Shown here in pieces: positions 1 to 6,886 of a stretch of DNA of 38,922 nt. The first letter of the stretch is position 1. Every line of letters starts with the position of its first letter. The notes beneath the pieces are model-generated. The model made no database searches and was not told where the DNA came from. It saw only the letters and a program-made list of their open reading frames with translations. Made by a program: the position numbers and the translations under genes. The DNA comes from a virus, in the UHGV virus genome UHGV-2190349; one strand, 5' to 3'.

Positions 1-1158
1 ATGCTCACCGTTAAGCAGATTGAAGCAGCAAAGCCGAAAGAAAAACCATACCGCCTTCTCGATGGTAATGGACTGTACCTTTATGTCCCTGTATCCGGGA
101 AAAAGGTATGGCAGCTTCGCTACAAGATTGACGGTAAGGAGAAAATCCTGACCGTAGGAAAATATCCGCTTATGACTTTGCAGGAGGCAAGGGATAAAGC
201 ATGGACTGCGAGGAAAGACATCTCGGTTGGCATCGATCCGGTAAAAGCGAAAAAGGCTTCGTCTAACAACAATTCCTTTAGTGCGATTTACAAGGAATGG
301 TACGAGCACAAGAAGCAAGTCTGGTCAGTAGGCTATGCAACTGAACTTGCAAAAATGTTTGATGACGACATTTTACCTATCATCGGCGGCCTTGAAATTC
401 AGGATATTGAGCCGATGCAACTGCTGGAAGTAATCCGCAGATTTGAAGATCGCGGTGCAATGGAACGAGCCAACAAAGCACGCAGAAGATGCGGCGAGGT
501 TTTCCGTTACGCTATTGTCACCGGAAGGGCTAAATATAACCCGGCACCTGACCTTGCAGACGCCATGAAAGGATACCGCAAGAAGAACTTCCCGTTTCTT
601 CCTGCAGACCAGATCCCTGCATTCAACAAAGCACTGGCAACATTTTCAGGAAGCATCGTATCGCTCATTGCGACTAAAGTTTTGCGCTACACAGCCCTAA
701 GAACGAAAGAGCTTCGTTCCATGCTATGGAAGAACGTCGATTTTGAAAACAGGATTATCACCATCGACGCCAGTGTGATGAAGGGACGCAAAATTCATGT
801 GGTCCCGATGTCAGACCAGGTGGTTGAACTTCTCACTACGCTAAGCTCCATCACCAAACCAGTATCAGAGTTTGTTTTTGCCGGGCGCAACGATAAGAAG
901 AAGCCAATCTGCGAGAACGCGGTATTGCTTGTGATCAAACAAATCGGCTATGAAGGTCTGGAAAGCGGTCATGGATTCAGGCATGAATTCAGCACGATTA
1001 TGAACGAGCACGAATGGCCTGCTGATGCTATTGAAGTGCAACTGGCACATGCCAACGGCGGATCTGTGCGTGGAATATACAACCATGCTCAGTATCTCGA
1101 TAAGCGCAGAGAAATGATGCAGTGGTGGGCGGACTGGCTTGATGAAAAGGTGGCGTAA
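1..1158 (+). CDS. intS: Tyrosine-type site-specific integrase (IntS-like, KplE1/CPS-53 family)
   Basis: 385-aa ORF starting at ATG; C-terminal catalytic region with HxxR and terminal Tyr (GHGFRHEFST...RGIYNHAQY); N-terminus MLTVKQIEAAKPKEKPYRLLDGNGLYLYVP matches my recollection of E. coli IntS. Confidence 0.9.
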   Translation: MLTVKQIEAAKPKEKPYRLLDGNGLYLYVPVSGKKVWQLRYKIDGKEKILTVGKYPLMTLQEARDKAWTARKDISVGIDPVKAKKASSNNNSFSAIYKEWYEHKKQVWSVGYATELAKMFDDDILPIIGGLEIQDIEPMQLLEVIRRFEDRGAMERANKARRRCGEVFRYAIVTGRAKYNPAPDLADAMKGYRKKNFPFLPADQIPAFNKALATFSGSIVSLIATKVLRYTALRTKELRSMLWKNVDFENRIITIDASVMKGRKIHVVPMSDQVVELLTTLSSITKPVSEFVFAGRNDKKKPICENAVLLVIKQIGYEGLESGHGFRHEFSTIMNEHEWPADAIEVQLAHANGGSVRGIYNHAQYLDKRREMMQWWADWLDEKVA

Positions 1159-1484
1159 TGCCACCCATCACCCACCCTGTCATCCTGTAGCGCGCTGTTG
1201 ATGAAGAACGTCACGCGCCCCAGCACCTCAACTTCCTCCGCCTCCTCCCCTTCGATCGCTTCACCATCATCAGTGATTAATGCCCTACCCATTACCCGGG
1301 CAAACTGCGTTCTGCCGCCAGATAAAATCAGCAGAACCTGATTCTGTACCAGCCTGGTGCACGGCTCGATAACGGCAAAGCCGGATGAGGTTTCCAGGAT
1401 GCGAGTGTCGACGCCAACACCGCAGATTCGCTCCGGAGTTAACCGCTGCTCTACATAGTCGCCAGCCGGCGAAGGGAAGCCCAT
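1089..1484 (-). CDS. Hypothetical acidic protein with UmuD/MucA-type N-terminal arm motif (GFPSPAGDYVEQR); possible degenerate LexA/S24-fold protein
   Basis: 131-aa ORF; ATG preceded by GGGGAGGG Shine-Dalgarno inside the upstream gene and overlapping its stop (TAATG); 3' end overlaps the int 3' end by 70 nt on the opposite strand; canonical S24 motifs (GxSM, TVKK) not evident. Confidence 0.45.
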   Translation of the reverse strand: MGFPSPAGDYVEQRLTPERICGVGVDTRILETSSGFAVIEPCTRLVQNQVLLILSGGRTQFARVMGRALITDDGEAIEGEEAEEVEVLGRVTFFINSALQDDRVGDGWHYATFSSSQSAHHCIISLRLSRY

Positions 1485-1732
1485 TACAGAACCCTCCCCA
1501 TGTTACGTAGCATCCAGAGACGGTTTTCACTGTGGTCAGGCGTCTTGTCGACAAAGAACTCTTGATAGCGCTGGATCCACTCGTTGGCGTCGACCTGGCT
1601 GAAATGCCAGTTTCTCGTGCGCAACTCACGGATGAAGTCGTTCGTATGAAGGCACTGATAACCCTTTGGGTTTTGCTGTACTGCAGCGACAAATGCGCTG
1701 TGAATGTCTGATTGGCGGGGTATGATCTGCAC
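1484..1732 (-). CDS. Hypothetical protein (82 aa), first gene of a two-gene coupled operon
   Basis: ORF track; apparent GTG start immediately after AAAAAGGA; stop overlaps start of the downstream ORF; no recognisable family. Confidence 0.4.
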   Translation of the reverse strand: MQIIPRQSDIHSAFVAAVQQNPKGYQCLHTNDFIRELRTRNWHFSQVDANEWIQRYQEFFVDKTPDHSENRLWMLRNMGRVL

Positions 1733-1815: not shown

Positions 1816-3645
1816 TTACACCTGACCAAGGTCCTCTACGCTTTCCTGATCATTCAGCAAGGTAATGGCAACAGCAATTGAGGAGAGGATAGTTTTGATT
1901 TCTATGGTGTTCATCCCTTCCTTTTCCCGGACGTACTCGCATAATTTATCGACGTCAAATATCTCTCTGATGTTTGTATATTCGGCGGCTCTTTCAAGCA
2001 AGTGCACGATTTCTTCTCGCTGACCTTCGACAAATTGAGCCTGCCATGCTTGCACAGACCTTGGCGTGAATTTAACCCCGCTATCATAAGGAGCATCTGC
2101 GATATCAAGGCCAAATCTACCCTGCAATGATTTATCCCATGTCGCATTCAAAAATGGCAGAGAAACTAATTCAGGAGCCAGCTTTGCCATGACGCTGTAG
2201 TGGAACAATTCTTTGTTCCTGGCCTCCGGACTGAGCTTGAATACCAAACGCGCAACTTTAGGAGAGAGAAGTGGCATCAGTTTAATTCTGCCTGTGACGT
2301 TCTGAGCAAGAGGGCCGTTCCAATTGGAAAGACGGTTTTCTACGAAGAACTTCTCAGGTAAAACATCAAACCTTACAGATTTAATATTCTCCTCAAGCCA
2401 GCCGTAGAACCAACCTATTTGAGCGTTTTTATACAAACTGGAGAGAATGTTTAATGGATCCATCTTCTGATGGTAGTTTATGAACTTAGAAAGAATTGCA
2501 TCTTTATTGTCCATAAAGGACAGGTTTTTAAACTGCTTGGCGTGTCCGCCGGGTCCGCGATATAGCTCGCCGCCAAAGCCAGTCATATCGGACGTTATAT
2601 TTTTGATGGTGCGTTCAGCTGTTGCTCCATCCCATGGGCAAATATAACTTTCCATTCTGTAGGAATGCCAGTTAAGTTTTTCCCATGAATTAGCAAAATC
2701 CTGAGCTTTAACTTGTGGAGCCTTAACGTTAGCGACGTGCTTAACGCCGATTTTGCTGGCTATGTTCTGAGCGCAACTTATCTCCGGGCTTCCTTCCGGT
2801 CCGTTCGTAAATGTGGTAATCCTGTCTTTGAATCCTGCACCCAATGCCAGTGCAAGGACAAGACGAGAGTCCTTACCACCGGTCAGTGATAAGCGGAGTT
2901 CACCGGGAATGTTTTCACTCGCAGCCTTAAAGTTTTTCACCAATTCATCTACGATCAAATCCCAGTCATCACCTGAAAGGTCATTTAGATATTCAGCATC
3001 CTCACTTGAAGGCCAGATCTGATTCTTAAATTTATTGATATTTACTGTTGTTGAACCGATTGGTGACTTTAAATAGCTACCTGCCGTGATTGTATTTACA
3101 CCTTCAAATGGTGTTTCATTTCCAAATATATTGGCATGCCCAATCAACCAGCTCAATGAGGAAAGGTTATATTTACCATTGCCTCGTAATTCATGTAATG
3201 CAGATGCTCTGTTACTTACGCAGGTCACACCATCAATTATTGTGTAATAAATAGGACAGGTGCCTGAGAAATCGCCGAAAGCAAGGAGGCCATTCTTGGA
3301 GGTTATTGAAACGAAGTTGTAAGACCCGGAAATATTGTCAAACATGTATTCCGCATCGTTTTTTGTGGAGGCATCAAGTGCGGCGTCAGACACGTCATAG
3401 CTATCCCCCATCCTTAAAACAGGGCCATTTATCAGGCATACGCCGCTTTGCTTAGATGTTATTCTTTTTGATATTTCGCCTTCCGCATTGCCACATGCTG
3501 TATATGCCCAAGCTCCGCTACCAGATATTTTATTAGCCACCTCTACTGGCTTAAATGTTAAGTTCCTTTTTAGGGCCTGCTGCGCTGTCTCGTATAATTT
3601 CTTAACAGACTCGCTTTTTCCATTTAAAACAATAAAGTTTATCAT
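1816..3645 (-). CDS. Asparagine synthetase (AsnB) family PP-loop ATP-pyrophosphatase/amidoligase homolog lacking the N-terminal glutaminase cysteine
   Basis: 609-aa ORF; PP-loop SLTGGKDS at residues ~253-260; AsnB-like segments (ITAGSYL, FTNGPEGSPE, LLAFGDFSGTCPIYY); begins MINF with no Cys2; visibly AT-rich relative to neighbouring phage genes. Confidence 0.8.
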   Translation of the reverse strand: MINFIVLNGKSESVKKLYETAQQALKRNLTFKPVEVANKISGSGAWAYTACGNAEGEISKRITSKQSGVCLINGPVLRMGDSYDVSDAALDASTKNDAEYMFDNISGSYNFVSITSKNGLLAFGDFSGTCPIYYTIIDGVTCVSNRASALHELRGNGKYNLSSLSWLIGHANIFGNETPFEGVNTITAGSYLKSPIGSTTVNINKFKNQIWPSSEDAEYLNDLSGDDWDLIVDELVKNFKAASENIPGELRLSLTGGKDSRLVLALALGAGFKDRITTFTNGPEGSPEISCAQNIASKIGVKHVANVKAPQVKAQDFANSWEKLNWHSYRMESYICPWDGATAERTIKNITSDMTGFGGELYRGPGGHAKQFKNLSFMDNKDAILSKFINYHQKMDPLNILSSLYKNAQIGWFYGWLEENIKSVRFDVLPEKFFVENRLSNWNGPLAQNVTGRIKLMPLLSPKVARLVFKLSPEARNKELFHYSVMAKLAPELVSLPFLNATWDKSLQGRFGLDIADAPYDSGVKFTPRSVQAWQAQFVEGQREEIVHLLERAAEYTNIREIFDVDKLCEYVREKEGMNTIEIKTILSSIAVAITLLNDQESVEDLGQV

Positions 3646-3910: not shown

Positions 3911-6364
3911 CTACTTTGCTTCGAGATTTCCCACTCGTTCAGCCAGAGCCTCAAACTGCGATAGCAGCCTTTGATGATTACGACGATGAAGGGCAGCCTC
4001 CATCACTAATGCCTCCTCATATCGAATGCCATAGCGTGATCCCGCTTCAACCGCCGGAACTACTACATCGCCAGTCTCTTCATCAAGAACTTCTGGTGAG
4101 CTTTCCCACTTGTCATAACAGAAGAAAGCAAACTGGTGAGGATCAAGTCCATGACGGATAAACGCTTCTTGCGCACGCTGGGCAATAATGCCGACATGCC
4201 AACGGGCTCCATCATCTCCCTTTGCCTCTATACGGTCAATGAACTGGAACTGCACGAAATCTACTTCCGCCCAGGCATCCAGAATATCATCTGCGTACGG
4301 CGCTTCCATTAACCGTGAATCTGTCGTTTGGACGGGTTCGAGAGAACCACGAGCCAGCATCACTGGACGCGATTTTTGCCTTTCATCGGAGGTGACAGTA
4401 TACGCAGCCTGAGTGAATCCGCCCGCAAATGGACTTGAACTGGTACCAACAGTTCTGGTGTTAGCGGCGCTGGGCTGGATATTGCCGTTTACGCTCATGT
4501 TGGTGTTGATATTTACGACAGCAGAAGCAAAGCGTGCAACTTCAGTACCGGCCGACGCTTCAGTTGATGAGACGTAGAGGCCGACAGCATTTTTACTAAG
4601 GACTGCGGTTCGGGCAAATCCACTAGAATCGCGGATCTCTCCGAGCCCAACTTGATAATCGTCAGACTGCGGGCCGGTAACGTTAGTGATGCAATGGAAT
4701 ACGCCACCCATTTGGTTAAACGGATCTGTCACGGATTCAAGATGAAGGCCATCTATAATGATCTTCCCGGTATTGCTACCCCCTGACTCTATGCCTACAG
4801 GGCAATTCCTTAACGTCACGTTGGTTAGTTTTTGATATTTCCTGTTCAGGCGTAAGGCAACATTGGTGTCTCTACACACAATATTGGTTACAGAACACGC
4901 CTCTGCATCACCAAACTGCCGATCACTGGCTCCGGAGGCTGTTGTTGTCTGGTATCCGGTTATTGCGTTAGCGCACTGAATATTTGATCCGTTGCAATAT
5001 CGCTCCTCAATCCACACTGAAGCCCCAATTCTTCCGCCATCATATCCGAGACATGATATATTGCTGTAATTGACGAATGGGGATTTAATATGGAGCCCGA
5101 TGATGTCTGAATCAGTGGATTTAAATCGGTTCTGAATGACTGTGATGTTTGTAACATCACTCCATACACCGCCAGTTCCACGACTGACGGTATCGCCAAT
5201 GATCCCCTGCTTGATACGGACGCCAGCGCCGGGCGCTCCGACGTTACCAAAGTCTGACACATAAACGTTCGATACCTTCGGCGCCAATGACATTACGTCA
5301 ACGCCTGCCCAAGGGTGGGCTGGCTCGTCAAGTTGCCCGAAGTTGAAAACGAAGATGTTATTTAATTGAAACGCGCGACTGACAGACCCATTATCCTTAA
5401 TGTCGATACCATCTGCGCCGGTGTTTTCAGACCAGAATCCGTCGATGCTGCAGCCCTTATACCCGCCATTCTGAAGACCCAAGGCATAATGAGAGCAGTT
5501 CTTTACCTTGAGGCCGCGAATTGTAAGCCCCTCGATTCCTGCTCCGACAATGCCTTCAGTTTGCCGGGCGTAAGGAGTACCATTCCATAAGTAATTCCCG
5601 TCGATACAAATATCTTGAAGGCCGACGCCCCTTACTTTTGTGGTGCCGTTTTCGAGCGGTGGCTTTGACCACTGTATTACCCCATATGCAGCATCTGTGT
5701 TGTAAGCTCTTATAGTAGTAGAGTTCCATCCCTGCCCACGGAGAATAATGTTGTCAAATGGGATGCGCAAAGCAGCAACGTTTAACGTTGCGTTGGCAGA
5801 GCTAAATTCAGTCGGATCCTGATGCACCATGTATAAGGGCCGCGGGAATACAATCGTGCCCCCGCCGGCTGCACTGAGTTCCTGCGCCTTCTGCATTATC
5901 AGTCTTGCGTTCTGCAGGGCGACAACCTGGCTAACAACCCCAGGGATTACGCCAAATGAATCAGCGGTTATTTCAATGCCACCAATTAATGACGAGCCGG
6001 TACTGGAGCTTAATCTCTGGACAAAAGAAAACGGATCAACCAGGGAGCAATTTTCAAAATAGTATTGCTGAGCCCCATAAGCATCGTAAACAGCCATGCT
6101 GTAATCACTTTCAGTGACTATGGTTACAACCTGGCCATTATATACTGGGTAACCTGAGGAATTAATTTTAACTGGCTGGCTGATCTGCACCAGGGAGCCA
6201 TTTTCATTCCTGAAATAAACCGCTACCCTATTGGCTGGATTTGTTGGATCCGTGTCAGGAACACCAACATAAATATTACCGTTTGCGATAGCTTTAAAGC
6301 TTCTCGGCGTAATAAATGGGATGTACGGCATTGTTACTTGCTGGTTGGCAATGATATCTGGCAT
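3911..6364 (-). CDS. Tailspike protein with P22 gp9-like N-terminal head-binding domain and C-terminal intramolecular-chaperone (peptidase S74-like) domain
   Basis: Start set at internal ATG (MPDIIANQQ...) preceded by GGAGA; N-terminus aligns by eye with the P22 tailspike head-binding domain (RSFKA.ANG.IY.G..DTDP.NPAN); C-terminal ~159 aa begins with SDERQK (Ser-x4-Lys autocleavage motif). Confidence 0.9.
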   Translation of the reverse strand: MPDIIANQQVTMPYIPFITPRSFKAIANGNIYVGVPDTDPTNPANRVAVYFRNENGSLVQISQPVKINSSGYPVYNGQVVTIVTESDYSMAVYDAYGAQQYYFENCSLVDPFSFVQRLSSSTGSSLIGGIEITADSFGVIPGVVSQVVALQNARLIMQKAQELSAAGGGTIVFPRPLYMVHQDPTEFSSANATLNVAALRIPFDNIILRGQGWNSTTIRAYNTDAAYGVIQWSKPPLENGTTKVRGVGLQDICIDGNYLWNGTPYARQTEGIVGAGIEGLTIRGLKVKNCSHYALGLQNGGYKGCSIDGFWSENTGADGIDIKDNGSVSRAFQLNNIFVFNFGQLDEPAHPWAGVDVMSLAPKVSNVYVSDFGNVGAPGAGVRIKQGIIGDTVSRGTGGVWSDVTNITVIQNRFKSTDSDIIGLHIKSPFVNYSNISCLGYDGGRIGASVWIEERYCNGSNIQCANAITGYQTTTASGASDRQFGDAEACSVTNIVCRDTNVALRLNRKYQKLTNVTLRNCPVGIESGGSNTGKIIIDGLHLESVTDPFNQMGGVFHCITNVTGPQSDDYQVGLGEIRDSSGFARTAVLSKNAVGLYVSSTEASAGTEVARFASAVVNINTNMSVNGNIQPSAANTRTVGTSSSPFAGGFTQAAYTVTSDERQKSRPVMLARGSLEPVQTTDSRLMEAPYADDILDAWAEVDFVQFQFIDRIEAKGDDGARWHVGIIAQRAQEAFIRHGLDPHQFAFFCYDKWESSPEVLDEETGDVVVPAVEAGSRYGIRYEEALVMEAALHRRNHQRLLSQFEALAERVGNLEAK

Positions 6365-6411
6365 TTGCTGTTCTCCAGGTGCAGAAAAGCCGCACAAGCT
6401 AAAACTTGCGC

Positions 6412-6426
6412 AGCGTGGCTACGGTT
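6412..6426. repeat. Direct repeat copy 1 (AGCGTGGCTACGGTT)
   Basis: Identical 15-mer recurs at 6522..6536, flanking the palindrome. Confidence 0.7.
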
Positions 6427-6499: not shown

Positions 6500-6521
6500 T
6501 CTCCTTCAAGCTCATTGCCTA

Positions 6522-6536
6522 AGCGTGGCTACGGTT
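6522..6536. repeat. Direct repeat copy 2 (AGCGTGGCTACGGTT)
   Basis: Identical to 6412..6426. Confidence 0.7.
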
Positions 6537-6622
6537 GGTATTTGTTGCATACCGAGACGGTACCATTGTTGATTTGTACAGTAGGTTTTACGATGCCATT
6601 CCACCCATTTGGTGAGGCATTG

Positions 6623-6886
6623 ATGATGTACAGCAAATACGATGAGGCGCAGTTCCACTTGAGGCTTACGCACGAGTTGCACGCTAAGATTAAGCAGCGT
6701 GCGAAGATGAATAACAGGTCGCTGAACTCAGAGATAATTGCAGCGATTGAAGAATCATTGGATAAACAAAGCTCTGCATCAGTTTACATTGACGATGCAG
6801 AGCGTATGGCAGAACAACAATCTGATATGGTTAAGAAAATTGTCTTTGATACGCTCAAGGAGCTATATAAAAAAGACTGCAACTAA
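6623..6886 (+). CDS. mnt: Mnt-like ribbon-helix-helix repressor (immI-type), orphan with no arc/ant
   Basis: Start at internal ATG with GGTGAGG Shine-Dalgarno; product strongly resembles P22 Mnt (NNRSLNSEIIAAIEESL...DDAERMAEQQSDMVKKIVFDTLKELYKK). Confidence 0.85.
   Translation: MMYSKYDEAQFHLRLTHELHAKIKQRAKMNNRSLNSEIIAAIEESLDKQSSASVYIDDAERMAEQQSDMVKKIVFDTLKELYKKDCN

What the first reader, a model, noticed from the sequence alone, without database searches (positions are those of the whole stretch)
3911..4390. Tailspike carries a C-terminal autoproteolytic intramolecular-chaperone domain
The last ~159 residues start with SDERQK (Ser-x4-Lys dyad) followed by a conserved-looking helical region, the hallmark of peptidase S74-type chaperone domains that are cleaved off after trimer folding (endosialidases, T5 L-shaped fibre). 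Fused to a P22-type head-binding domain, this predicts a mature tailspike of ~658 aa with a glycan-degrading beta-helix whose receptor specificity differs from P22/Sf6/HK620.
Basis: partly seen in the sequence, partly recalled or inferred. Interest (0 to 1): 0.5.

Follow-up and report, generated by a model that had tools for sequence, protein, structure and literature searches.

The report
Self-cleaving chaperone domain on prophage tailspike
The last 159 residues of this E. coli prophage tailspike are a well-known type of self-cleaving folding domain, an ordinary finding whose one small oddity is a 20-residue insert carrying a dead second copy of the cleavage motif.

Summary
Window 3911-6364 (minus strand) encodes an 817-aa tailspike. 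Residues 1-110 are a P22-type head-binding domain (Pfam E 3.8e-39). Residues about 146-570 are predicted to form a right-handed beta-helix. Residues 659-817 start with SDERQK and form a Peptidase_S74 intramolecular chaperone domain (CIMCD).

- Pfam scores it at 40 bits against a cut-off of 22.
- It matches the solved chaperone domains of K5-lyase-type spikes, GA-1 gp12, endoNF and T5 pb1 by sequence.
- A confident model of residues 689-817 hits only chaperone structures by fold.
- Thr658, Ser659 and Lys664 are invariant in homologue alignments.

By analogy, cleavage at Thr658|Ser659 would leave a 70.0-kDa spike and release 18.2 kDa. No experiment has tested this.

It holds a second, lysine-less motif (TDSRLM). 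This insert defines a recurrent subclass that no detected solved structure represents.

The architecture is already common (CUS-3 and many E. coli prophages), and NCBI already names this exact protein "phage tailspike protein". It is a new member of a known kind, of low interest.

The more interesting side observation is a 609-aa AsnB-like gene just downstream that travels with this receptor-binding module across unrelated prophage types.

The parts
3911..6364 (-). Tailspike gene, 817 aa plus stop. It is identical to NCBI WP_250693330.1, 'phage tailspike protein [Escherichia coli]'.
   Evidence: ORF list and translation. The exact protein lies on at least 24 public contigs in the same prophage context. 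Name from the exact cluster look-up.
6373..6376 (-). GGAG ribosome-binding site 8 nt upstream of the ATG. The TTG at 6397 that opens the mechanical ORF lies inside an upstream hairpin, so the ATG at 6364 is taken as the start.
   Evidence: Sequence read. Terminator-like hairpin at 6414-6389. The start matches P22 and Sf6 tailspike N-termini.
6035..6364 (-). P22-type head-binding (virion attachment) domain, residues 1-110.
   Evidence: PF09008 E 3.8e-39, profile positions 1-110 of 113. Matches Sf6 gp14 at E 7.6e-37 and the P22 gp9 N-terminal domains.
4655..5929 (-). Predicted right-handed parallel beta-helix, about residues 146-570. This is the presumed receptor-binding and glycan-cleaving body; its chemistry and substrate are unknown.
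   Evidence: AlphaFold2 strands with pLDDT mostly 75-95. Foldseek matches P22, Sf6 and HK620 spikes, the AlgE4/AlgE6 mannuronan epimerases, an alginate epimerase/lyase, and GH87 and GH28 enzymes. No Pfam family at E up to 1.
4391..4654 (-). C-terminal stalk of the mature spike, residues 571-658. It ends in the conserved pre-cleavage motif N635...G640...GG648-649-FTQ...T656-V-T658.
   Evidence: N635, G640, G648, T656 and T658 are invariant in alignment A1. The monomer model has low confidence here, as expected for an intertwined trimer.
4373..4390 (-). Outer motif S659-D-E-R-Q-K664, the predicted Ser-Lys catalytic dyad. The predicted scissile bond is T658|S659.
   Evidence: S659 and K664 are invariant in A1 and A2. 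The Pfam S74 profile starts at S659 once the insert is removed. The cleavage position follows T5 pb1 Thr1263|Ser1264.
4295..4354 (-). 20-aa insert ARGSLEPVQTTDSRLMEAPY, residues 671-690. It is absent from the CIMCDs found in the PDB.
   Evidence: Gap in the alignment to 9vvr. The spacing class of +20 aa is recurrent among homologues. pLDDT is about 57-69, with a predicted bridge between residues 668 and 686.
4307..4324 (-). Inner pseudo-motif T681-D-S-R-L-M686. It is a second copy of the cleavage motif with Lys replaced by Met.
   Evidence: A profile built from INTSDERLK-type CIMCDs aligns collinearly from Q679 to the C-terminus (171 bits). HMMER puts the SDARLK motif of 7y5s on it. In the junction variants where it could be read, the last residue is Met or Ile and never Lys.
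3914..4294 (-). CIMCD core, residues 691-817: an alpha/beta body plus a long C-terminal helix (782-816), the element that forms the trimeric coiled coil in solved CIMCDs.
   Evidence: Pfam S74 match at residues 692-739. pLDDT above 90. Foldseek: 3gw6 E 2.4e-10; 3gud TM 0.80 (normalised to the target) and rmsd 2.5 A; 4uw8; 7dc3. The next hit has E above 1.
1816..3645 (-). Neighbour gene, not part of the chaperone: a 609-aa AsnB-like PP-loop protein immediately downstream of the tailspike. It is a candidate partner that modifies the surface polysaccharide.
   Evidence: Weak Asn_synthase and TIGR01536 matches. Homologues sit beside or in the same prophage as the same receptor-binding module in four prophage contexts, and in chromosomal capsule-type clusters.

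Best explanation
Residues 659-817 are a C-terminal intramolecular chaperone domain of the Peptidase_S74 (ICA) family, fused to a P22-like tailspike.

Inferred from the solved endoNF, T5 pb1, GA-1 gp12 and MyRF systems:
- Three nascent chains are brought into register by the long C-terminal helices, which form a coiled coil, and by the alpha/beta body.
- This templates folding of the intertwined stalk (residues about 571-658) at the end of the beta-helix.
- Once the trimer is correctly formed, Ser659, activated by Lys664, attacks the Thr658-Ser659 peptide bond.
- The 18.2-kDa chaperone leaves, and a stable 658-residue (70.0-kDa) spike stays attached to the virion through its head-binding domain.

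Shown here: domain identity, fold, conservation of Thr658, Ser659, Asp660 and Lys664, and the position of the domain.

Not shown: the cleavage itself, the cleavage site, and any glycan-degrading activity.

This protein differs from the textbook cases in having a 20-aa insert after the dyad. The insert contains a lysine-less relic of a second cleavage motif. It most likely arose by recombination or duplication at the conserved motif and now serves as a structural hairpin.
For: - Profile: Pfam Peptidase_S74 above the gathering score.
- Solved relatives by sequence: 9vvr (K5-lyase type) E 1.5e-41, 3gud 5.3e-20, 7y5s 1.1e-17, 3gw6 3.7e-15, 6eu4 1.7e-09 and 4uw8 2.9e-07.
- Fold: the C-terminal model has pLDDT above 90 for residues 689-817. 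Foldseek returns only CIMCD/ICA structures with E below 0.001.
- Conservation: T658, S659 and K664 are invariant and D660 is at least 90% conserved across 35 and 48 homologues. In 26 distinct junction variants of the insert class, the S-D-E and final K positions are fixed while positions 4 and 5 vary.
- Which motif is the dyad: deleting residues 671-690 in silico extends the Pfam match to profile position 1 at S659 and raises the score from 43.3 to 49.6 bits. Promoting the inner motif does not (43.0 bits).
- Family size: 6086 representative clusters at E up to 1e-3.
- Tested relatives: the annotated K5 lyase of phage UE-M3 is 47.8% identical over residues 629-808. K5 lyases are one of the four phage protein families in which this domain was first recognised, and release after trimer folding is described for the family as a whole (PMC8326128).
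- Mechanism and cleavage position in T5 and endoNF: PMC4690869.
Against: - No experiment exists on this protein or on any member of the insert subclass.
- The native Pfam alignment covers only profile positions 14-57, so it misses the catalytic motif because of the insert.
- The insert places 20 extra residues between the dyad and the chaperone core, and this stretch is modelled with only moderate confidence (pLDDT 57-69).
- The arginine 14 residues upstream of the Ser, which acts as the folding sensor and oxyanion-hole element in endoNF (R897) and T5 (R1250), is Pro645 here.
- Only monomer models could be made, so the geometry of the trimeric active site is untested.
Confidence: 0.85

Rival explanations
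1. The domain is a true CIMCD homologue that still helps trimer folding, but in this insert-bearing subclass it is not released. The spike would keep its 159-residue cap on the virion.
For: A 20-aa insert separates the dyad from the core. The -14 Arg sensor is absent (Pro645). The native Pfam match lacks the catalytic N-terminus. No solved structure of this subclass exists among the six PDB relatives.
Against: Ser659, Asp660 and Lys664 are invariant throughout the subclass, while neighbouring positions vary. That pattern is hard to explain without catalytic selection. MyRF cleaves without a stalk arginine (PMC8326128).
Confidence: 0.08
2. Cleavage, or a second trimming step, occurs at the inner motif (before Thr681). 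That position is collinear with the canonical start of the chaperone, so the mature spike would end near residue 680.
For: A profile of INTSDERLK-type CIMCDs and the 7y5s alignment place the canonical catalytic motif on TDSRLM. Many representatives begin their alignment at query position 38-40 of the 179-aa fragment.
Against: The inner motif has Met or Ile, never Lys, at the base position in the junction variants where it could be read. Its first residue is Ser, Thr or Pro. Both Ser and Lys are indispensable in MyRF, and the same is reported for endoNF. The Pfam score does not improve when the inner motif is made the junction.
Confidence: 0.03
3. SDERQK is a chance motif, and the C-terminus is an ordinary non-chaperone trimerisation or receptor-binding module like the C-terminal domain of the P22 tailspike.
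For: S-x4-K alone is expected 1.66 times in a protein of this composition.
Against: Profile, solved-structure sequence, fold and conservation evidence all place the region in the S74 family. There is no similarity to P22, Sf6 or HK620 spikes beyond about residue 117.
Confidence: 0.01

Closest known systems
CIMCD of K5-lyase-type tailspikes (KflA/ElmA class; the PDB 9vvr chain; the annotated K5 lyase of Escherichia phage UE-M3)
   Same: This is the closest solved or annotated relative of the C-terminal domain: E 1.5e-41, about 48-50% identity over residues 629-808. It shares the same GGFTQ..TV(T/V)-SD..K junction, the same core and the same C-terminal helix.
   Different: The K5-lyase domain has the canonical spacing (K + 9 residues to ILDAW), with no 20-aa insert and no inner pseudo-motif. 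It has an Arg at -15, where this protein has none. The catalytic bodies are unrelated. The N-terminal adaptor here is P22-like.
Endosialidase CIMCD (endoNF of phage K1F, PDB 3gw6; CUS-3 tailspike)
   Same: Same family and fold (Foldseek E 2.4e-10; sequence E 3.7e-15). It has the same Ser-x4-Lys dyad at the stalk-chaperone junction. CUS-3 shows the same overall architecture, a P22-type head-binding domain plus S74 (P0086; PMC5380687).
   Different: No endosialidase beta-propeller, beta-barrel or stalk Pfam domains are found here. The long beta-hairpin 'tentacle' of endoNF is larger. R897 is crucial to autocleavage in endoNF, whereas position -14 here is Pro645. This protein has the 20-aa insert.
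GA-1 gp12 neck appendage CIMCD (PDB 3gud) and T5 pb1 L-shaped fibre CIMCD (PDB 4uw8)
   Same: 3gud is the best superposition: TM 0.80 normalised to the target, rmsd 2.5 A over 113 columns, 39% identity. T5 supplies the precedent for cleavage between Thr and the catalytic Ser, and for release of the Ser with the chaperone.
   Different: The mature domains upstream are different. T5 uses R1250 of a neighbouring chain as the folding sensor. Neither protein has the insert.
P22 gp9, Sf6 gp14 and HK620 tailspikes
   Same: The head-binding domain is homologous (53-57% identity in the structural alignments). The genomic position is the same, after the ejection-protein genes and a Mnt/Arc-like repressor. 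All have a beta-helix body.
   Different: According to PMC4690869, the P22 spike folds without a cleavable chaperone. Central and C-terminal parts show no sequence similarity. Receptor specificity is therefore expected to differ.
MyRF ICA domain (PDB 7dc3)
   Same: Same fold and the same Ser-Lys dyad mechanism (Foldseek E 5e-4; PMC8326128). Like this protein, it lacks a required stalk arginine.
   Different: It is eukaryotic and membrane-anchored. After cleavage the ICA domain stays on the membrane and the N-terminal part is the released product. Identity is 13-14%.

Membership tests
Peptidase_S74 / C-terminal intramolecular chaperone (CIMCD, ICA) domain | Significant match to the family profile, above the curated threshold | tested here: met
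   PF13884 at 40.1 bits (whole protein) and 43.3 bits (fragment), against a gathering score of 22; E 4.4e-10 and 4.4e-11.
Peptidase_S74 / C-terminal intramolecular chaperone (CIMCD, ICA) domain | Ser-x4-Lys catalytic dyad at the N-terminal boundary of the domain, directly after the stalk | tested here: met
   S659 and K664 are invariant in A1 (35 sequences) and A2 (48 sequences), and the preceding T658 is also invariant. The profile N-terminus maps to S659 when the insert is removed.
Peptidase_S74 / C-terminal intramolecular chaperone (CIMCD, ICA) domain | Contiguous alignment to the whole profile, with the dyad followed after about 9 residues by the first helix (not strictly defining) | tested here: inconclusive
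   The native protein matches only profile positions 14-57. A 20-aa insert interrupts the alignment, and deleting it restores positions 1-57. In the first set parsed, the spacing is 9 residues in 52 proteins and 27-30 in 22.
Peptidase_S74 / C-terminal intramolecular chaperone (CIMCD, ICA) domain | Characteristic fold: an alpha/beta body plus a long C-terminal helix able to form a trimeric coiled coil | tested here: met
   The model has pLDDT above 90 for residues 689-817 and a helix at 782-816. Only 3gw6, 3gud, 4uw8 and 7dc3 score below E 0.001. The trimer itself was not modelled.
Peptidase_S74 / C-terminal intramolecular chaperone (CIMCD, ICA) domain | Stalk arginine 14 residues upstream of the Ser, acting as folding sensor (endoNF R897, T5 R1250; not universal, since MyRF lacks it) | tested here: not met
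   Position -14 is Pro645, and the consensus of close relatives is P-W-A-G-G. This feature belongs to some members, not to the family as a whole.
Peptidase_S74 / C-terminal intramolecular chaperone (CIMCD, ICA) domain | Autoproteolytic release after trimerisation, and dependence of folding on the domain | not testable with these tools
   Needs expression, S659A and K664A mutants, and SDS-PAGE or mass spectrometry.
P22-like (Lederbergvirus-type) tailspike | N-terminal Head_binding domain | tested here: met
   PF09008 E 3.8e-39 over residues 1-110. Matches the Sf6 and P22 N-terminal domains.
P22-like (Lederbergvirus-type) tailspike | Gene position after the gp7/gp20/gp16 ejection genes in a P22-like genome | tested here: met
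   The called genes in L001-L004 run coat, gp4, gp10, DUF2824, gp7, Inj_translocase, gp16, Mnt/Arc, tailspike. The window is about 95% identical to Sf6, Sf101 and phiv205-1 over the matched parts of 6400-31000, which cover 55-74% of that stretch.
P22-like (Lederbergvirus-type) tailspike | Receptor-destroying endoglycosidase, lyase or esterase activity | not testable with these tools
   Only the beta-helix fold is supported. No catalytic family was assigned.
Endosialidase (CUS-3 / K1F type) | Endosialidase beta-propeller, beta-barrel and stalk domains (PF12217, PF12218, PF12195, PF12219) | tested here: not met
   None were found in the query. They are present in P0086, the CUS-3-type cluster. 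This protein is not an endosialidase.
GH28 / pectate-lyase-type beta-helix enzyme families | Profile match to a CAZy-type beta-helix family | tested here: not met
   No Pfam family at E up to 1 for residues 112-658. Similarity is at fold level only, to AlgE4/E6, an alginate epimerase/lyase, GH87 and GH28, at 10-16% identity.

The most novel reading that the evidence does not exclude
The tailspike may be one half of a mobile two-gene receptor module. The same beta-helix and CIMCD receptor-binding module travels with a 609-aa AsnB-like PP-loop enzyme that has no Cys2 glutaminase nucleophile. The two occur together in P22-like, lambda-like and P2/HP1-like prophages of Escherichia, Leclercia and Aeromonas. 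Chromosomal homologues of the enzyme sit in ABC-transporter capsule clusters, one of which encodes a UDP-glucose dehydrogenase. On this reading, the enzyme amidates or otherwise caps a carboxylate of the acidic surface polysaccharide that the spike recognises. That would give lysogens a previously undescribed chemistry of seroconversion against their own phage. Within the spike, the duplicated cleavage motif (an intact outer Ser-x4-Lys and a dead inner Ser/Thr-x4-Met) would mark a distinct CIMCD subclass produced by recombination at the motif.
Probability: 0.3. Interest if true: 0.55.

Novelty: new member of a known kind. Interest (0 to 1): 0.22.

Why it matters
For the finding as stated, it matters little. 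CIMCD-bearing tailspikes are abundant: the domain matches 6086 representative clusters. The head-binding plus S74 architecture is common in E. coli prophages and has been known since CUS-3. Routine annotation already labels this protein.

Practical value: anyone expressing this spike as a depolymerase or typing reagent should clone the full length. The expected product is then a 70-kDa mature protein ending at Thr658.

Two things could repay a small experiment.
- The insert subclass, with its dead second motif and no -14 arginine, offers a natural test of how cleavage is licensed.
- The linked AsnB-like gene may be a new kind of lysogenic-conversion enzyme tied to this receptor-binding module.

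Tried and rejected
- A DNA search of 5426 complete E. coli genomes with the tailspike gene gave only one partial hit (376 bp, 82.5%). The 609-aa gene gave none there and none in 50,697 phage records. Those collections therefore gave no annotated context.
- NCBIfam has no model matching the tailspike.
- Pfam has nothing for residues 112-658, so no catalytic family could be assigned.
- A paper search for the PDB code 9VVR found nothing. Its C-terminal domain was identified indirectly as K5-lyase type, through identity to the annotated UE-M3 K5 lyase C-terminus.
- PADLOC gave no hit for the three genes between int and the tailspike, so a defence-system reading was dropped.
- A search for papers on phage-encoded AsnB-like amidation of O-antigen or capsule found nothing relevant.
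- The 814-aa protein upstream of the AsnB-like gene in L009 is not a homologue of this spike (best E 0.002).
- The idea that TDSRLM is the real dyad was rejected because it has no Lys and brings no profile gain.
- GH28-like local motifs (NTGADGID, GVRIK) were noticed from memory, but no profile supports them, so no claim is made.
- Trimer geometry could not be examined because only single-chain AlphaFold2 was available.
Full report
**What is there.** The finding lies in a gene on the minus strand, ATG 6364 to stop 3911-3913, encoding 817 aa.
- A GGAG sits 8 nt upstream of the ATG. The TTG at 6397 that opens the mechanical ORF lies inside a terminator-like hairpin at 6414-6389.
- The window as a whole is a roughly 39-kb Sf6/Sf101-like P22-type phage genome, about 95% identical to those phages over the matched parts of 6400-31000, which cover 55-74% of that stretch.
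- The same protein occurs on at least 24 public contigs as a prophage next to yfdC, mlaA and fadL. From my own knowledge this is the argW site.
- In that context the gene follows gp7, gp20, gp16 and a Mnt/Arc-like repressor.
- The exact sequence is in NCBI as WP_250693330.1, "phage tailspike protein [Escherichia coli]". Near-identical copies occur in Shigella sonnei and S. flexneri.

**Check of the observation.**
- Bases 4390-4373 read SDERQK, which is Ser659 to Lys664. From Ser659 to the end is 159 aa, 18.15 kDa. Residues 1-658 weigh 70.04 kDa and the precursor 88.17 kDa.
- S-x4-K occurs once, against 1.66 expected by composition, so the motif alone proves nothing. The surrounding evidence does.
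- Pfam Peptidase_S74 scores 40-43 bits against a cut-off of 22.
- phmmer against the PDB finds 9vvr (E 1.5e-41), the GA-1 gp12 chaperone 3gud (5.3e-20), the Kp7 fibre 7y5s (1.1e-17), the endoNF chaperone 3gw6 (3.7e-15), 6eu4 and T5 pb1 4uw8.
- An AlphaFold2 model of residues 600-817 built on a 48-sequence alignment has pLDDT above 90 for residues 689-817 and a 35-residue C-terminal helix.
- Foldseek against the PDB returns only chaperone structures below E 0.001: 3gw6; 3gud (TM 0.80, rmsd 2.5 A); 4uw8; and MyRF 7dc3. The next hit has E above 1.
- Thr658, Ser659 and Lys664 are invariant, and Asp660 nearly so, in alignments of 35 and 48 homologues.

**Rest of the protein.**
- Residues 1-110 are a P22-type head-binding domain: PF09008 E 3.8e-39, and 53-57% identity to the Sf6 and P22 N-terminal domains.
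- The full-length model gives a confident right-handed beta-helix over about residues 146-570. Confidence is low in the stalk (about 575-660), as expected for a segment that only folds in the trimer.
- Foldseek matches P22, Sf6 and HK620 spikes. Among non-phage proteins it matches the AlgE4/AlgE6 mannuronan C5-epimerases, an alginate epimerase/lyase, and GH87 and GH28 enzymes, at 10-21% identity.
- BFVD returns generic beta-helix spikes, several of them carrying S74 domains, including a coliphage protein named 'Lyase'.
- No Pfam family matches residues 112-658.
- [quoted passage not shown] is therefore supported for the fold and the dissimilarity. The activity is only inferred.

The chaperone core does not follow the dyad directly.
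- Relative to 9vvr, endoNF and most homologues, 20 residues (671-690, ARGSLEPVQTTDSRLMEAPY) are inserted between "SDERQK-SRPVML" and the "ADDILDAW" helix.
- Among the first 75 proteins parsed, the gap from Lys to the ILDAW helix is 9 residues in 52 and 27-30 in 22.
- Of 91 parsed representatives of 50%-identity clusters, 73 are canonical and 17 carry an insert of 10 or more residues. About half of those have the +20 form; the others carry different, shorter inserts.
- The insert contains a second copy of the motif, T681-D-S-R-L-M686.
- Two home-made profiles show that both copies are real. A profile of "GGFTQ..TVTSDE" CIMCDs puts its motif on Ser659-Lys664 and then skips the insert. A profile of "INTSDERLK" CIMCDs aligns collinearly from Gln679 through TDSRLM to the C-terminus (171 bits).
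- HMMER likewise places the SDARLK motif of 7y5s on TDSRLM.
- Removing the insert in silico extends the Pfam match to profile position 1 at Ser659 (49.6 against 43.3 bits). Making TDSRLM the junction gives no gain (43.0 bits).
- Across 26 distinct junction variants, the outer motif keeps S, D, E and K while its 4th and 5th residues vary. The inner motif, where it could be read, keeps D and ends in Met or Ile, never Lys, and its first residue can be Ser, Thr or Pro.
- I conclude that the outer SDERQK is the working dyad. The inner copy is a relic that has been kept as structure. The model predicts a bridge between residues 668 and 686, so the insert loops out as a hairpin, but at pLDDT 57-69 only.

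**Mechanism.** This section is inferred from relatives.
- In endoNF, T5 pb1, GA-1 gp12 and MyRF the domain trimerises through its C-terminal helix and templates the upstream beta-structure. It is then cut off by a Ser-Lys dyad (PMC8326128; PMC4690869).
- In T5 the bond cut is Thr1263|Ser1264, and the Ser leaves with the chaperone.
- By analogy the bond here is Thr658|Ser659, which gives a 658-aa mature spike.
- One element does not carry over. EndoNF R897 and T5 R1250, both 14 residues before the Ser, couple cleavage to correct stalk folding. Position -14 here is Pro645, and close relatives have P-W-A-G-G.
- MyRF cleaves without such a residue, so this does not argue strongly against cleavage. 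It leaves open how cleavage is licensed in this subclass.

**Comparison with what is known.**
- The closest relative of the C-terminal domain is the K5-lyase type. The 9vvr alignment is identical to the C-terminus of the annotated K5 lyase of phage UE-M3, which is 47.8% identical to this protein over residues 629-808.
- K5 lyases are one of the four phage protein families in which the domain was first recognised.
- The combination of a P22-type head-binding domain with S74 is not new. The CUS-3 endosialidase has it (PMC5380687; P0086), and dozens of E. coli prophage tailspike clusters carry PF09008 plus PF13884.
- The receptor-binding body plus chaperone (from residue about 128 onwards) is 55-67% identical to proteins with other N-terminal adaptors. 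These are T7-type, P2 tail-collar and lambda-like side fibres (my reading of the Pfam accessions and of the gene neighbourhoods). They occur in E. coli, Leclercia and Aeromonas. This is the usual modular exchange.
- The domain family is very large: 6086 representative clusters at E up to 1e-3.

**Verdict on the finding.** It is a new member of a well-known kind that automatic annotation already recognises. Interest is low.

**Side observation worth more than the finding.**
- Immediately downstream lies a 609-aa gene (1816-3645, minus strand). It is distantly related to asparagine synthase: TIGR01536 E 6e-10, far below its cut-off. It has a PP-loop, SLTGGKDSR. Its N-terminus is MINFIV, so it lacks the Cys2 glutaminase nucleophile.
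- Homologues lie directly after the receptor-binding protein in another P22-like prophage (81% identity, with the receptor-binding module 56% identical). The same holds in a lambda-like Leclercia prophage (96%, module 56%) and next to an unrelated beta-helix protein in a further phage contig (82%).
- In Aeromonas media a homologue (70%) lies beside the integrase of a P2/HP1-like prophage whose tail fibre carries the same receptor-binding module (66%).
- An E. coli P2-like prophage with the same module has no such gene within 10 kb.
- Chromosomal homologues (54-56%) sit in capsule-type clusters with Poly_export, large glycosyltransferases and a hexapeptide acyltransferase. The Burkholderia cluster also has ABC transporter genes. 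The other cluster has UDP-glucose dehydrogenase and KpsC/S-like genes.
- This suggests, but does not show, a polysaccharide-modifying lysogenic-conversion enzyme functionally tied to this spike's receptor.

Noticed in passing
window 1816-3645 (-); L013:3520-5349; L016:12882-14711; L009:10001-11830; L005:7001-8821; L006, L007, L010, L011: A 609-aa AsnB-like PP-loop protein without the Cys2 glutaminase nucleophile sits between the tailspike and int. Homologues accompany the same receptor-binding module in P22-like, lambda-like and P2/HP1-like prophages. Chromosomal homologues lie in capsule-type biosynthesis clusters. It is a possible new lysogenic-conversion (polysaccharide amidation) enzyme. 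It is absent from 5426 complete E. coli genomes and from 50,697 phage records.
   Followed up: partly
cluster members P0349, P0351, P0355, P0357, P0360: Near-identical 661- and 667-aa versions start at Met157 (MQKAQELS...). They lack the head-binding domain and the start of the beta-helix but keep the chaperone. They occur in many E. coli genomes and one S. flexneri genome, and are probably remnants of decayed prophages or altered gene calls.
   Followed up: no
window 3914-4021 (-) versus P0001/P0348: Two alleles of the chaperone's C-terminal helix exist within the 90%-identity cluster. The 817-aa form ends ...HRRNHQRLLSQFEALAERVGNLEAK and the 823-aa form ends ...QRRNADRQKALTDKLSDLIKELTIRLETLES. 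This implies recombination inside the chaperone domain.
   Followed up: no
window 1089-1484 (-) and 1484-1732 (-): Two small ORFs (131 and 82 aa) lie downstream of the AsnB-like gene on the same strand. The 131-aa ORF overlaps the 3' end of int by 70 nt in the opposite orientation. It starts GFPSPAGDY, which from memory resembles the UmuD/LexA-type S24 N-terminus. Neither ORF has a Pfam or PADLOC hit.
   Followed up: partly
window 6515-6886 (+) and 6389-6414 (-): A Mnt/Arc-type ribbon-helix-helix repressor gene (Repressor_Mnt E 6e-14, Arc E 2e-12) lies divergent from the tailspike. A terminator-like hairpin sits just upstream of the tailspike RBS. From my own knowledge this resembles the P22 immI-gene 9 arrangement.
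   Followed up: partly
L013:5791-7275: In the related P22-like prophage fragment, a 494-aa reverse transcriptase (RVT_1) follows the AsnB-like gene. It may be a retron or another defence cargo at the same moron locus.
   Followed up: no
window about 5206-5424 (-), residues 314-386: Highly conserved beta-helix motifs, ENTGADGIDIKD (D324 invariant) and GAGVRIKQG, recall the GH28 NTD/RIK signatures from memory. No profile supports GH28 membership. These residues are candidates for mutagenesis.
   Followed up: no
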